Assembly: GCA_029068165.1 (NCBI GenBank) | Contig: JAIEDA010000018.1 | Span: forward strand, 74,065 to 138,064 | Length of the DNA: 64,000 bases | Direction of reading: 5' to 3' | Source: Clostridia bacterium | GTDB lineage: Bacteria; Bacillota; Clostridia; Christensenellales; UBA3700 | Shown: positions 59,401-61,960 of the stretch, piece after piece | Position numbering within the stretch: the stretch's first letter is position 1 | Layout of the letters: every line of letters starts with the position of its first letter | Translations under genes and position numbers: made by a program | The notes under the pieces: generated by a model | What the model was told of the DNA's origin: nothing | The model's database searches: none | The model's input: the letters and a program-made list of their open reading frames with translations, nothing else

Positions 59401-61960
59401 CGAATACGAGGGTAACTATATATTGCCTGTAGAGGGAGATAAGTCGACCTATACAGGATTTGGCGAAAACGAAGACTTTGAATGGGAAAAGACTTGGCAG
59501 GTAGTGCCGCATAAGATATCCACTTCAAGTTGGAGCACCGTCGCTCACCCCGACAGCAACAAGACTTTCAATATCTTGCAGCTCAAAGACCCGAGCGCGG
59601 ATACTGTAGTATCTTATTTGTATTACGAAACCGATTCCAACGGACAAATACCTGCGGGAGCAACAGGCTTGACTGTAGACGAATTGGAAATGCCAAGCGA
59701 GGGAGCAAAGTGGTACGTAGCAAAGCCTGTGCTTCAAGACACGACCAACTACGTGCTCGAGAATCCCAACGCTCAATCAAGACCGTTTATGGTAGGAGCA
59801 ATCAACGCTTCGCTAATAAAGATAACGGTAGAACCTGCAAAGACGGAGTTTAGCTACAACACTCAACCAAGACAAGTGACTGTCAAGACGAGCGGAGCTA
59901 ACTTAAACAACGGCTACTTTGACCTGACGTACTTCAAAGAGGACGGCTACACAATGCTTAGCGGAGCGCCTGTAGAGAGCGGGACGTACTGGGTGGAAAT
60001 AACGCTCAAGTCAACGTATGCGGACAAGTACTATATAGAGGGAACGACGAGTTATCAATTCACTATTGTACCCGCTGAGATAACGCCTGAGTGGATAAAC
60101 ACTGCAAGACCGCCGGTGCTCAAACTTGAGTATGGACAAATATACGCGCTTGAGTACACTATCATTGACGAGAACGGCAATGAAGTAACAAACGTAAACA
60201 ATATCCAAGCGGACAAAGTATATCAAATAAAAGCGACTATAAAAGATGCGTATAGGAACAATATACAATTCTCAATAGCGGACGGATACGGCTCGATATA
60301 CGATACGGATTACTATACGTTTAGTCTATCGGCTGAGGACATAGCGGGAGGACTGTACGATCCCAACGATCCTACGAACCCTAACTATCCGCAAGTAGAC
60401 CCCGACGCGCCGAATACCACGCCCAACAATCCTGACGACCCGACCGGCGGCAACGGCGACGACAAAGACGGAAACAAAACTTTAGAGAAGATAAAAGAGT
60501 TTTTGCAAAAGTATTGGCAAGTAATCGTTAGCGGAGTATCAATAGTATTGATAGTAGCGTTTACGGCGAAAGGATTGTCGTACGCGAGCAAGCGTAGGAA
60601 AGCAAAGAAAGAAGCTAAGAAGTATACTACGCCGGCTTACGCGATTGCATTGTTCACGGCAGGAGAGAAGCTGTGGAATATCGATTACAAGATATGGACA
60701 ATCTTAGCGTTTACGCTGTTGGGCGTAGCGGTACTAGCGTTTGTCTTTATGATGCTAGAGAAGCGCGGATTTAAGAAAGCGCAAGAAGAGTTGGAAAGCG
60801 CAAAGCTAGAGTACGCGAGAAATCCAATGGCGTACGCTACTGCAGGGGCAAATACGGCAAACGCGCAACCGCAAAATCAAGAGCCAAGCGCTGAAGAGGG
60901 AAAGAGCAATAAGAAGAAAGACCGCGAGATAGAACGGCTTGAAGAAGAATTGCGTAAACGCGACGAAGAGTATAGAAGCTTCCAAGAAGAGAGCCGTCGC
61001 CGCGATGAGGAAAATAGACGTCGTGACGAAGAAATGAAGATGATGTTTATGACTATGATGGGCGGCGCAAACGGCAACGCTAATCCGCAGTACGACGCAA
61101 ACGGCAATCCGCAGTTTGCCACGATGGGCGGCGGAACGAATATAATAATAGATGCCGAGCATATAAAGACAATGATAACGGAAACAGTGGCGGCGTTGCT
61201 ACCTAGCGTGCAAGCGTTGCTTCCGCAACAGGCTAGTACCAACGACGAGGTGGTGCAAAAGCTGCTTGAGAAATCTCAACATAACGACGATGCGTTGAAA
61301 CAAATGATGCGCAATCAAGAAAAGCTGATCGAAAAACTTCTCGAACGCGACGAGCAAAGGGGAGCTGCTTCCGACAAGGTAGTAGAAAAAGTCGTAGAAA
61401 AACCCGTCGAAAAGATAGTGGAAGTACCCGTAGAGAAGATTGTCGAAGTGCCGGTTGAGAAAATAGTGGAAAAGGTAGTTGAGAAGAAAGTCAAAGTACC
61501 GGTAGAGAAGATAGTTGAGAAAATCGTCAAAGTACCTGCCGAGAAGAAAGCGCCCGCAGTGGAAAGAGCGCCAAGGCTCAACATCGACGAAGCTTACGCT
61601 AGGTTGAGCAAAGAGCAAAAGAAATTCTTTGATAAGCTCCGCGAGTACGCTCTTTCAAAAGATAAGTGCAAAGAGAAGAAGTTGACCTACAATATTTTGC
61701 TTGGTCAATCGTCTATCAATCCGCTTGTCAAGCTGACGATAAAGAAAGACACGACGGTAGCTTTGTTCAAGATGGAAGACGAGTATTTCAAGGATATACG
61801 CCGCAACGCGGAAGGGTCTAAGATAAAAGTCAAGGAAAGCGAGCTTGTCGTCGCCGACGCGGAATCGTTTGAAACGGCAAAGCAAATGATAGACCTTCGC
61901 GAAGATCAAATCGAGCGATATGCCGAGTTCTTGAAAGAACAAAAAGCATACAAGAAATAA
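56459..61960 (+). CDS. 1833-aa membrane-anchored surface protein: signal peptide, adhesin-like ectodomain, TM helices, long charged repeat-containing tail
   Basis: Start placed at ATG 56459 (RBS [42 protein letters not shown] is a signal peptide). The region from the ORF-track start at 56297 has no signal-peptide logic and overlaps the inverted repeat. A WLRSGG...VRPCLNLNL motif is followed by at least 6 Ig-like modules (GTY.V.L ... F.I.P pattern), a Pro/Asn/Asp linker, TM helices at about 60511-60575 and 60692-60756, a coiled coil, xVEK repeats and a C-terminal domain. Confidence 0.85.
   Translation: [1833 protein letters not shown]
61379..61546 (+). repeat. in-frame tandem repeat: 14 tetrapeptide units (xVEK/xVEV), 12-nt period
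   Basis: Reads [56 protein letters not shown]. Units use different synonymous codons (gaa aag ata gtg gaa gta ccc versus gag aag att gtc gaa gtg ccg). Confidence 0.9.

What the first reader, a model, noticed from the sequence alone, without database searches (positions are those of the whole stretch)
61379..61546. Alveolin-like EKIVEVP / xVEK tetrapeptide repeats in a bacterial membrane protein tail
The tail contains 14 consecutive 4-residue units, reading [56 protein letters not shown]. The heptad EKIVEVP occurs twice exactly. That is the same motif I recall as the defining repeat of alveolins, the membrane-skeleton (inner membrane complex) proteins of apicomplexans, ciliates and dinoflagellates. 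It is also close to the Val/Pro-rich repeats of euglenoid articulins.

The repeat units use different synonymous codons, so the periodicity is maintained at the protein level rather than produced by recent slippage.

In eukaryotes these repeats build filamentous lattices under membranes. A bacterial protein placing them next to TM helices could do something analogous. Alternatively, this could be convergent low-complexity sequence.
Basis: partly seen in the sequence, partly recalled or inferred. Interest (0 to 1): 0.65.

Follow-up and report, generated by a model that had tools for sequence, protein, structure and literature searches.

The report
Articulin-like repeats in bacterial surface-protein tails
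A gut Clostridia bacterium carries, in the conserved membrane-anchored tail of a giant surface protein, a short Val/Glu/Lys/Pro repeat that closely resembles the repeats of protist membrane-skeleton proteins (alveolins, articulins), but it fails the formal alveolin test and its function is unknown.

Summary
Window 61379-61546 (+) encodes 14 in-register tetrads with two exact EKIVEVP heptads. They lie inside a 1887-aa ORF (56297-61960). EKIVEVP is indeed the published alveolin consensus.

The block is not chance. It is conserved in more than 1,200 homologous tails from uncultured Christensenellaceae-like Clostridia, with 20 or more paralogs in some genomes. It is under purifying selection (dN/dS about 0.08, close to the adjacent globular domain). 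Its length varies from 10 to 95 aa, and it differs by one 48-nt in-frame indel between two paralogs that are about 97% identical.

It is 64% identical to glaucophyte articulin and to a Cryptococcus "epiplastin-like" segment. Pfam IMCp scores only 17.7-19.3 bits against a cut-off of 21.1, so it is not a demonstrable alveolin.

Full-length relatives have one TM helix and the same C-terminal domain. They carry an acidic or Glu/Arg-rich linker where this family has the repeat, so the tail is probably cytoplasmic and the block fills a spacer slot.

My best reading is a beta-prone, possibly self-associating tether that arose by convergence. I rate it a new variant of a known repeat kind, of moderate interest.

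The parts
56297..61960 (+). Gene for a 1887-aa giant surface protein. An alternative start at 56459 (MHRTFLRAK...) gives 1833 aa.
   Evidence: ORF list. Collinear homology of head, stalk and C-terminal domain to P0199. More than 1,200 tail homologs. Neither start version is in the collection by exact match.
56486..56551 (+). N-terminal signal peptide or anchor ([22 protein letters not shown], then QS).
   Evidence: Hydropathy scan, KD 2.86. Equivalent N-termini in paralogs.
60356..60475 (+). Pro/Asn/Asp-rich linker at the end of the ectodomain.
   Evidence: Sequence. Also present in paralogs.
60515..60577 (+). TM1 (stop-transfer helix). Corresponds to the single TM of distant relatives.
   Evidence: KD 2.18, followed by [16 protein letters not shown]. 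P0199 has ...IIIIIAVKRRKKKEE at the equivalent place.
60578..60625 (+). Lys/Arg-rich cytoplasmic loop.
   Evidence: Family mean is 7.2 K+R in the 20 residues before the uncharged stretch.
60626..60757 (+). Weakly hydrophobic segment (60626-60691) followed by the 22-aa TM2 (60692-60757). Possibly a membrane hairpin. TM2 is followed by the K/R-rich flank EKRGFKK.
   Evidence: In most members the uncharged stretch totals 35-42 aa (14-20 aa plus a 21-22 aa TM2). In this protein's own subfamily the first half carries charges. Topology is unresolved.
60920..61066 (+). Highly charged helix (RRDEE-rich) ending in the conserved Met-rich motif [11 protein letters not shown] (61034-61066).
   Evidence: AF2 helix with pLDDT of about 90. 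M and G columns are at least 90% conserved.
61196..61249 (+). Conserved linear motif LLPxxQxxLPQQASxND.
   Evidence: Invariant P245, P252, Q253, A255 and nearly invariant L, Q, S, N in 46 tails. AF2 pLDDT below 50.
61250..61378 (+). Helical, coiled-coil-like segment of variable length that precedes the repeats.
   Evidence: AF2 helix at tail residues 259-298. Length-variable in alignment A1. dN/dS 0.165.
61379..61546 (+). The finding: 14 tetrads of V/I-V-E-K type. Composition is V 36%, K 23%, E 21%, I 9%, P 9%. Three VPV modules and 11 EK dyads.
61409..61453 (+). Two exact EKIVEVP heptads (61409-61429 and 61433-61453).
61568..61957 (+). Conserved 130-aa C-terminal alpha/beta domain with no Pfam or NCBIfam family.
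   Evidence: 62-98% identity to the window's domain across 70 tails. AF2 pLDDT 82, pTM 0.72. Foldseek top hits are YdhG-like/DUF1801, YjbR, DUF419 and the T4 MotA C-terminal domain, with TM 0.5-0.6. 230 cluster representatives in 1.84 billion proteins. No Pfam or NCBIfam hit.

Best explanation
The block is a lineage-specific repeat of the articulin/alveolin type: Val/Ile strings separated by Glu-Lys dyads, with Pro every 8-16 residues.

It sits in the spacer slot of a conserved tail module. The order of that module is: TM anchor, charged helices, Met-rich motif, LPQQAS motif, coiled coil, REPEAT, then a 130-aa YdhG/YjbR-like C-terminal domain. Dozens of paralogous giant surface proteins in uncultured Christensenellaceae-like gut Clostridia share this tail.

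The tail most likely lies on the cytoplasmic face of the membrane. This is inferred from relatives, not shown.

I propose that the block acts as an extended, beta-strand-prone connector. It would hold the C-terminal domain roughly 3-30 nm from the membrane-proximal helices. Because the same sticky polyampholyte strand is present on every paralog, it could also zipper laterally with neighbouring tails.

Shown:
- conservation of the block across the family;
- purifying selection at the protein level;
- length change by in-frame unit indels;
- homogenisation between paralogs;
- sequence resemblance to eukaryotic articulin-type domains.

Inferred: beta conformation, self-association, cytoplasmic location, and convergent rather than inherited origin.
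For: - Family conservation. More than 1,212 tail homologs, and 114 of 120 carry the degenerate heptad. All repeat blocks found in 673 kb of related loci lie inside family genes.
- Selection. Across 61 tails, the repeat has pN 0.163 and dN/dS about 0.075. The CTD has 0.119 and 0.059. The preceding helical linker has 0.29 and 0.165. pS is about 0.8 everywhere.
- Not an ordinary disordered linker. V+I is 45% and A+G under 2%, with almost no L. The block falls on the ordered side of the charge-hydropathy boundary (H 0.515 versus 0.420). The same is true of the Cryptococcus and Caulobacter domains, whereas the linkers of relatives fall on the disordered side.
- Spacer slot. The full-length collinear relative P0199 has (REERRQEEL)n there, and other relatives have E/A/P-rich acidic linkers. 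All have one TM followed by K/R, then the CTD. Soluble CTD proteins without TM or signal peptide also exist.
- Length plasticity. Blocks span 10-95 aa with median 60. One 48-nt indel separates paralogs that are about 97% identical.
- Structure prediction. AF2 on the monomer gives coil with pLDDT 34-42. The same behaviour is reported for alveolin domains, which become beta-ribbons only in multimer models (PMC12465100).
- Resemblance. 64% identity to articulin-type segments.
Against: - No structure or assembly was predicted or measured. The monomer model is simply low-confidence coil.
- Relatives manage with acidic or Glu/Arg-rich linkers, so the slot may need only a spacer and no zippering.
- Topology is unverified. 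A plain two-TM reading, with a strongly positive loop before TM2, puts the tail outside the cell. In this protein's own subfamily the segment before TM2 contains E, K and D, so it is a poor TM helix.
- dN/dS on low-complexity repeats is biased by alignment choice and by saturated synonymous sites.
- Wide tolerance of copy number argues against a precise architecture.
Confidence: 0.45

Rival explanations
1. Passive spacer. The block is only a charged low-complexity linker whose single job is to separate the C-terminal domain from the membrane. It has no defined structure and no self-association, and the resemblance to alveolins is compositional coincidence.
For: Relatives fill the same slot with unrelated acidic, E/R-rich or Q/G/Y-rich low-complexity sequence. 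Length varies about ten-fold. The AF2 model is coil with pLDDT below 45.
Against: 45% beta-branched hydrophobic residues and ordered-side charge-hydropathy are atypical of passive linkers. dN/dS is as low as in the folded CTD and half that of the neighbouring linker. Motif and register, not only composition, are conserved across paralogs as low as about 50% identical in the aligned tail.
Confidence: 0.25
2. True articulin/alveolin homolog forming a bacterial membrane skeleton. The repeat shares ancestry with eukaryotic epiplastins, by horizontal transfer in either direction. The tails of the many paralogs co-polymerise into a submembrane lattice that organises the surface proteins.
For: 64% identity to articulin-type segments, with identical strings. 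The IMCp score lies on a continuum with the accepted 'epiplastin-like' proteins: Caulobacter 21.3, Cryptococcus 24.9, this window 17.7-19.3 bits. The block is flanked by a helical region and a globular domain, as in head/medial/tail epiplastins. Twenty or more paralogs per genome share the module. The tail is probably on the cytoplasmic face.
Against: IMCp is below the gathering score in all 46 members tested. Arrays are only 10-95 aa, against 140 aa or more in alveolins (PMC12465100). Homologous relatives lack the repeat, so it arose inside this lineage within an existing linker. Sequence built from five residue types converges easily. The same motif turns up in fungi, insects and unlabelled fragments (PMC6212826 section 30).
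Confidence: 0.12
3. Extracytoplasmic wall-zone segment. TM1 and TM2 form a simple hairpin, so the whole tail is exported. The V/E/K/P block then acts as an extended wall-spanning or wall-embedded segment, with the C-terminal domain binding an envelope component.
For: Charge bias across TM2 is strongly N-in: 7.2 K+R before it, against a net-negative 20-residue flank after it. The segment before TM2 is weakly hydrophobic (KD 0.1-0.9), and in the window's subfamily it is charged. The Caulobacter articulin-like protein has a signal peptide, and Euplotes plateins are also secreted articulins (PMC4303705).
Against: Collinear relatives with a single TM place the homologous CTD in the cytoplasm, and soluble CTD proteins without a signal peptide exist. 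TM2 is followed at once by a K/R cluster, 3.3 in 10 residues. The best fold matches of the CTD are cytoplasmic proteins.
Confidence: 0.13

Closest known systems
Alveolins (IMCp domain, Pfam PF12314) of apicomplexans, ciliates and dinoflagellates
   Same: The exact consensus heptad EKIVEVP (twice here). V/I/E/K/P composition. Predicted non-helical. The monomer is disordered in AlphaFold.
   Different: IMCp scores 17.7-19.3 bits, below the 21.1 cut-off, against 69.6 for a real apicomplexan member. Alveolin repeats are 12-mers that also contain Q, Y, H, N and R, for example [28 protein letters not shown]. Alveolin domains are about 140 aa or longer, whereas this block is 56 aa with period 4/8. 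Alveolins are soluble cytoskeletal proteins, not tails of membrane proteins.
Articulins and 'epiplastin-like' ABD domains (Euglena, glaucophytes; Cryptococcus XP_568826; Caulobacter NP_419492)
   Same: This is the closest match. Identical strings occur: [28 protein letters not shown]. VPV modules are present. Identity is 64% over 56-66 aa to the Cyanoptyche and Cryptococcus segments. V+I is high and A+G near zero. A bacterial precedent already exists in Caulobacter (PMC6212826 section 30).
   Different: Those are stand-alone proteins with ABD domains of 130 to over 280 aa. They use R and D as well as K and E, and in Caulobacter also VYV modules. Here the block is short, uses K and E only, is fused into a 1887-aa membrane protein, and is multiplied across paralogs. 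No epiplast is known in the host.
Titin PEVK segment (entropic spring)
   Same: P+E+V+K makes up 89% of the block, which is a length-variable connector between structured parts. Insect epiplastin-like proteins are annotated 'titin-like'.
   Different: From general knowledge, PEVK is much richer in Pro and behaves as PPII/coil. This block has only 9% Pro and 45% V+I, and falls on the ordered side of the charge-hydropathy plot. I did not test this against titin sequences.
Charged linkers in the same slot of homologous proteins (P0199 (REERRQEEL)n; acidic E/A/P linkers of P0179, P0186, P0215)
   Same: Same position between the membrane anchor and the homologous C-terminal domain. All are low-complexity, highly charged and repetitive.
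   Different: Those linkers are helical (single-alpha-helix-like) or disordered and acidic, with few hydrophobic residues, and fall on the disordered side. The V/E/K/P block is hydrophobic and beta-prone.
YdhG-like/DUF1801, YjbR/DUF419 and T4 MotA C-terminal 'double-wing' folds (for the adjacent C-terminal domain)
   Same: Alpha/beta topology. Foldseek probability 0.87-0.97 for YdhG-like and YjbR (0.63-0.66 for DUF419 and MotA), TM 0.42-0.63, over 103-119 columns.
   Different: Sequence identity is 8-15% and E is about 0.1. There is no Pfam or NCBIfam match. Function is not inferable.

Membership tests
Alveolin (IMCp, PF12314) | Match to the IMCp profile at or above Pfam's gathering score (21.1 bits) | tested here: not met
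   17.7 bits for the tail and 19.3 bits for the isolated block. Only 3 of 46 family tails reach even E<0.05 and none reaches 21.1. Controls: apicomplexan 69.6, glaucophyte 34.3, Cryptococcus 24.9, Caulobacter 21.3.
Alveolin (IMCp, PF12314) | Core sub-repeat EKIVEVP (also EVVR, VPV) | tested here: met
   Two exact EKIVEVP and three VPV in the window. The exact heptad is in 68 of 120 homologs. Definition from PMC4286798 and PMC12465100.
Alveolin (IMCp, PF12314) | Tandem repeats with 12-residue periodicity over a domain of about 140 aa | tested here: not met
   Dominant period is 4/8. Family Pro-Pro spacings are 12 (83), 16 (83), 8 (68) and 14 (56). Block length is 56 aa here, median 60 and maximum 95. 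Definition from PMC4303705 and PMC12465100.
Alveolin (IMCp, PF12314) | Component of a subpellicular network under cortical alveoli in an alveolate | tested here: not met
   The context is bacterial: rpsJ-rplC-rplD lie directly downstream, and homologs come only from Clostridia/Christensenellaceae MAGs. Localisation cannot be tested here.
Articulin / epiplastin-like (Goodenough et al. 2018 criteria) | Low-complexity domain of acid-base dyads separated by V/I-rich strings, with high V+I and low A+G | tested here: met
   V+I 45%, A+G 1.8%, 11 EK dyads. The family pool is V 36, E 28, K 18, I 8, P 7 %. Strings are identical to those listed for Euglena and Cyanoptyche.
Articulin / epiplastin-like (Goodenough et al. 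2018 criteria) | VPV modules (articulin subclass) | tested here: met
   Three in the window block and a mean of 3.3 per family block.
Articulin / epiplastin-like (Goodenough et al. 2018 criteria) | Predicted beta-strand/random coil with no alpha-helix | tested here: inconclusive
   AF2 gives no helix but only low-confidence coil, pLDDT 34-42. No dedicated secondary-structure predictor or multimer model was available.
Articulin / epiplastin-like (Goodenough et al. 2018 criteria) | Stand-alone head/medial/tail cytoskeletal protein in an organism that builds an epiplast | tested here: not met
   The block is residues 1695-1750 of a signal-peptide-bearing, multi-TM 1887-aa protein. Whether the host has any submembrane layer cannot be tested here.
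Uncharacterised Christensenellaceae-like giant surface-protein family (conserved tail module) | TM1, KR loop, TM2, MxMMFMxMMGG, LPxxQxxLPQQAS, V/E/K/P repeat and 130-aa CTD, in that order | tested here: met
   All elements are present and aligned with 45 and 70 homologs. The CTD is 62-98% identical to the window's across the family.

The most novel reading that the evidence does not exclude
The shared cytoplasmic tails of the 20 or more paralogous giant surface proteins per cell co-assemble into a submembrane beta-sheet lattice through their articulin-type repeats. This would be a prokaryotic counterpart of the protist epiplast, coupling a variable adhesin repertoire to a common skeleton. It might share ancestry with eukaryotic articulins through horizontal transfer.
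Probability: 0.1. Interest if true: 0.85.

Novelty: new variant of a known kind. Interest (0 to 1): 0.45.

Why it matters
Articulin/alveolin-type repeats are regarded as a hallmark of protist membrane skeletons. The only bacterial case noted in the literature I could search is a set of Caulobacter "articulins".

This work adds a large Firmicute family, with more than 1,200 proteins in public data. In it a near-consensus version of the repeat is under purifying selection, inside a conserved and probably cytoplasmic tail shared by many paralogous giant surface proteins.

If the block self-associates, it would be a simple bacterial system for learning how these repeats assemble, which is still unknown for alveolins. 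It would also point to a way of organising a variable adhesin repertoire in abundant but uncultured gut Clostridia.

If the block does not self-associate, it is a clean example of convergent evolution of a very specific low-complexity motif. That would be a warning against using EKIVEVP-type motifs as taxonomic markers.

The neighbouring 130-aa C-terminal domain is itself an undescribed family, with 230 cluster representatives and no Pfam or NCBIfam model.

Tried and rejected
- Fetching real alveolins from the protein collection with PfIMC1g peptides failed. The first query was too short, and a 52-aa chimera found nothing. I took eukaryotic and Caulobacter sequences from the supplements of PMC6212826 instead.
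- A search with the repeat alone returned only 8 short unlabelled fragments (78-98 aa). HMMER's composition correction removes most of the signal, so no census of bacterial EKIVEVP proteins was possible.
- Exact look-ups of the window protein with either start codon found nothing.
- Pfam and NCBIfam give no family above its curated cut-off for the tail or the CTD. The precomputed PF28544 'Helical_needle' on P0002 is only a faint hit.
- phmmer of the CTD against PDB gave weak MarR/SarZ hits (E 0.17). I rejected these because the confident AF2 model matches YdhG/YjbR-like folds instead.
- Rfam finds nothing in the window.
- A literature search for the family found nothing relevant.
- I first favoured an extracytoplasmic tail, from the two-TM reading and charge bias. 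I downgraded this after finding single-TM and soluble relatives of the CTD.
- I first took P0001 to be an allele of the window gene. Its locus has different neighbours (serS, leuS), so it is a paralog.

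
Full report
**1. What is there**

Window 61379-61546 (+) translates to [56 protein letters not shown]. That is 14 in-register tetrads with two exact EKIVEVP heptads, at nt 61409 and 61433.

The block is residues 1695-1750 of a 1887-aa ORF, 56297-61960 (+). 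The ORF is followed by a 580-nt spacer and then rpsJ, rplC and rplD.

Residue self-identity peaks at lags 4, 8, 12 and 16 (0.47-0.52, against 0.07-0.19 elsewhere). At the DNA level TRF sees periods of 12, 24 and 36 nt with only 70-85% matches. Units encoding the same tetrapeptide differ at 1-4 of 12 bases, all synonymous.

Only 14 of 20,000 shuffles of the 56 residues produce even one EKIVEVP.

**2. The protein and its family**

The ORF has this order of parts:
- an N-terminal signal peptide;
- an ectodomain of about 1,300 aa;
- a Pro/Asn/Asp-rich linker;
- TM1;
- a Lys/Arg-rich loop;
- a weakly hydrophobic segment followed by a 22-aa TM2;
- a very charged helix ending in [11 protein letters not shown];
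- a Gly/Asn/Gln-rich stretch;
- an invariant linear motif LLPxxQxxLPQQASxND;
- a coiled-coil-like helix;
- the repeat;
- a 130-aa C-terminal domain (CTD).

Searching with the 496-aa tail returned more than 1,212 proteins. Every named hit is a hypothetical (one DUF4175-labelled) protein of 'Clostridia/Clostridiales bacterium' MAGs; the rest carry no name. Most are truncated at contig ends.

A scan of GTDB genomes found 185 copies. The 80 best come from 12 MAGs, among them 'uncultured Christensenella sp. MGBC118395' and 'Christensenellaceae bacterium'. Some MAGs have 17 to more than 20 copies, and the ORFs that do not start at a contig end run to 1,600-2,100 aa, apart from one 473-aa short form.

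The whole tail is collinear in all of them. No Pfam or NCBIfam model reaches its curated cut-off on the tail, and none matches the CTD.

**3. Behaviour of the repeat in the family**

The degenerate heptad E[KR][IV][IV]E[VK]P is present in 114 of 120 homologs, and the exact heptad in 68 of 120.

Blocks are 10-95 aa long (median 60). Pooled composition is V 36, E 28, K 18, I 8, P 7 %, with 3.3 VPV per block. Pro-Pro spacings are mostly 12, 16, 8 and 14 residues.

In 673 kb of related loci, every such block lies inside a family gene.

A codon-level comparison of 61 tails gave these values, with pS about 0.8 throughout:

| Region | pN | dN/dS |
|---|---|---|
| Repeat block | 0.163 | about 0.075 |
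| CTD | 0.119 | 0.059 |
| Preceding helical linker | 0.29 | 0.165 |

The array is also dynamic. The gene for P0001 sits at a different locus (serS and leuS are its neighbours), so it is a paralog. Its tail is about 97% identical in nucleotides to the window's, up to about 25 nt past the stop codon. It differs by one 48-nt in-frame indel inside the array, giving 10 tetrads against 14. This shows both gene conversion between paralog tails and recent unit gain or loss.

**4. Is it alveolin-like?**

EKIVEVP is the published consensus of the alveolin (IMCp) domain (PMC12465100 and PMC4286798).

Real P. falciparum repeats look like [28 protein letters not shown]. They are 12-mers with extra Q, Y, N and H.

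The supplements of PMC6212826 show that the strings composing this block occur verbatim in other proteins. The strings are [20 protein letters not shown] and EKIVKVPV. They appear in Euglena and glaucophyte articulins, in a Cryptococcus 'epiplastin-like' protein, and in part in the Caulobacter NP_419492 'articulin'.

BLASTP without masking gives these identities:

| Comparison | Identity | Length |
|---|---|---|
| Cryptococcus epiplastin-like | 64% | 66 aa |
| Cyanoptyche articulin | 64% | 56 aa |
| Apicomplexan IMCp protein | 47% | 53 aa |
| Caulobacter 'articulin' | 41% | 116 aa (gapped) |

Pfam IMCp scores 17.7 bits on the tail and 19.3 bits on the isolated block, against a cut-off of 21.1. 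None of 46 family tails reaches the cut-off. The same model gives 69.6, 34.3, 24.9 and 21.3 bits for the apicomplexan, glaucophyte, Cryptococcus and Caulobacter sequences.

So the block lies at the weak end of a continuum of 'epiplastin-like' sequences. It is closer to articulins than to alveolins proper, and it fails the formal alveolin test.

A search with the repeat alone recovered only eight short unlabelled fragments with similar motifs. No census of bacterial occurrences was possible.

**5. The neighbouring domain and what relatives reveal**

The CTD folds confidently on its own (pLDDT 82, pTM 0.72). It resembles YdhG-like/DUF1801, YjbR/DUF419 and the T4 MotA C-terminal domain, with TM 0.5-0.6, probability up to 0.97 and E of about 0.1.

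An exhaustive phmmer search of 1.84 billion cluster representatives found only 230 proteins with this domain. Fifty-eight have E at or below 1e-30; these form the core family, whose members carry V/E/K/P repeats.

A second tier at 35-45% identity lacks the repeats. It has two classes:
- Giant proteins of 1,250-4,085 aa. They have a signal peptide, a single TM followed at once by K/R, an acidic E/A/P-rich or (REERRQEEL)n linker, the CTD, and a basic C-terminal extension.
- Short proteins, some with no TM or signal peptide (P0173, P0176, P0183).

P0199 is collinear with the window protein: head E 2e-25, stalk E 2e-14, CTD E 4e-23. It has one TM and an E/R-rich helical repeat exactly where this family has the V/E/K/P block.

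Two inferences follow. First, the CTD is a cytoplasmic domain in relatives, so it probably is here too. Second, the repeat occupies a slot that other lineages fill with unrelated charged low-complexity spacers, so it arose within this lineage.

**6. Topology caveat**

Read naively, TM1 and TM2 form a hairpin, which would put the tail outside the cell. The flank before TM2 has 7.2 K+R per 20 residues and the flank after it is net negative.

Against this, several points favour a cytoplasmic tail:
- TM2 is followed at once by a K/R cluster, 3.3 in 10 residues.
- In most members the uncharged stretch totals 35-42 aa, which is long enough for a tight hairpin.
- TM1 corresponds to the single TM of the relatives.

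However, in this protein's own subfamily the first half of that stretch carries E, K and D.

I favour a cytoplasmic tail at roughly two to one. This is inference, not demonstration.

**7. How it most likely works**

The block is not an ordinary disordered linker, for four reasons:
- It is 45% V+I with almost no A, G, L, S or T.
- It falls on the ordered side of the charge-hydropathy boundary. So do the eukaryotic and Caulobacter domains, whereas the linkers of relatives do not.
- It is as constrained as the folded CTD.
- AF2 on the monomer gives only low-confidence coil (pLDDT 34-42). That is also what is reported for alveolin domains, which form beta-ribbons only when modelled with partners (PMC12465100).

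I therefore propose an extended, beta-prone connector. At about 0.3 nm per residue it spans roughly 3-30 nm. It positions the CTD and, being present on every paralog, can pair laterally with neighbouring tails.

Shown: conservation, selection, length plasticity, homogenisation between paralogs, and resemblance to articulin-type domains. Inferred: conformation, self-association, location, and convergent origin.

Three rivals remain: a purely passive spacer, a true homolog building a bacterial epiplast-like lattice, and an exported wall-zone segment.

**8. Novelty and verdict**

Bacterial 'articulin-like' proteins have been noted before, but only in Caulobacter (PMC4303705; PMC6212826 section 30).

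This case differs in four ways. It is in Firmicutes. The arrays are short and use only K and E as charged residues. The block is embedded in a conserved tail of a large paralogous family of giant surface proteins. It sits next to an undescribed C-terminal domain.

I rate it a new variant of a known kind of repeat. The resemblance is real and the constraint is clear, but alveolin membership is not demonstrated and function is unknown. Interest is moderate.

Noticed in passing
window 61985-62092: A 35-nt imperfect inverted repeat lies just after the stop codon (arms 61985-62019 and 62058-62092, 74% complementary). It sits inside an insertion of about 108 nt that is absent from the otherwise near-identical downstream sequence of the paralog in L082. 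It may be a small mobile or hairpin element. No copy was found in the 82 fetched loci.
   Followed up: partly
window 61196-61249: The linear motif LLPxxQxxLPQQASxND is strictly conserved (P, P, Q and A invariant in 46 tails) in a region that AF2 leaves unstructured. It looks like a binding or processing site. No known motif was matched.
   Followed up: no
window 61034-61066: A conserved Met-rich motif, [11 protein letters not shown] (family consensus MxMMFMxMMGG), ends a long charged helix and is followed by a Gly/Asn/Gln-rich stretch. Its function is unknown.
   Followed up: no
window 62298-62543: The leader upstream of rpsJ holds sigma-70-like promoter matches (62329-62357) and a terminator-like hairpin with a T-run (62456-62484), just before the S10-operon start at 62544. 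This may be an attenuator. No Rfam family matches.
   Followed up: partly
L050 4978-6396; proteins P0083, P0115: Short-form family members consist only of the second hydrophobic segment plus the full tail (repeat and CTD), with no ectodomain. The L050 copy lies directly after rnc and plsX. Its start codon is uncertain: ATG at 5057, or an upstream in-frame TTG.
   Followed up: partly
proteins P0173/P0264, P0176, P0183: Small soluble proteins carry only the CTD, some with an N-terminal coiled coil, and have no TM or signal peptide. P0264 (174 aa) was seen on 207 contigs. P0176 comes from an Anaeroplasmataceae MAG. The CTD is therefore an independent, undescribed domain family of 230 clusters.
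   Followed up: partly
L001-L080: Most family genes sit at contig ends, with the conserved tail only 0.1-2.3 kb from the edge. The near-identical tails (and possibly the repetitive ectodomains) seem to break short-read assemblies, so paralog numbers are probably underestimated.
   Followed up: no
window 56297 vs 56459: The start of the gene is ambiguous. The longest ORF starts at ATG 56297, but ATG 56459 (MHRTFLRAK...) lies immediately before the signal peptide and follows a purine-rich stretch (AGAAAAGGAATAAGGGAAAAAG).
   Followed up: partly
L081 1902-2373: A SpoIVA ATPase gene lies directly downstream of the paralog P0002, which suggests these organisms may sporulate.
   Followed up: no
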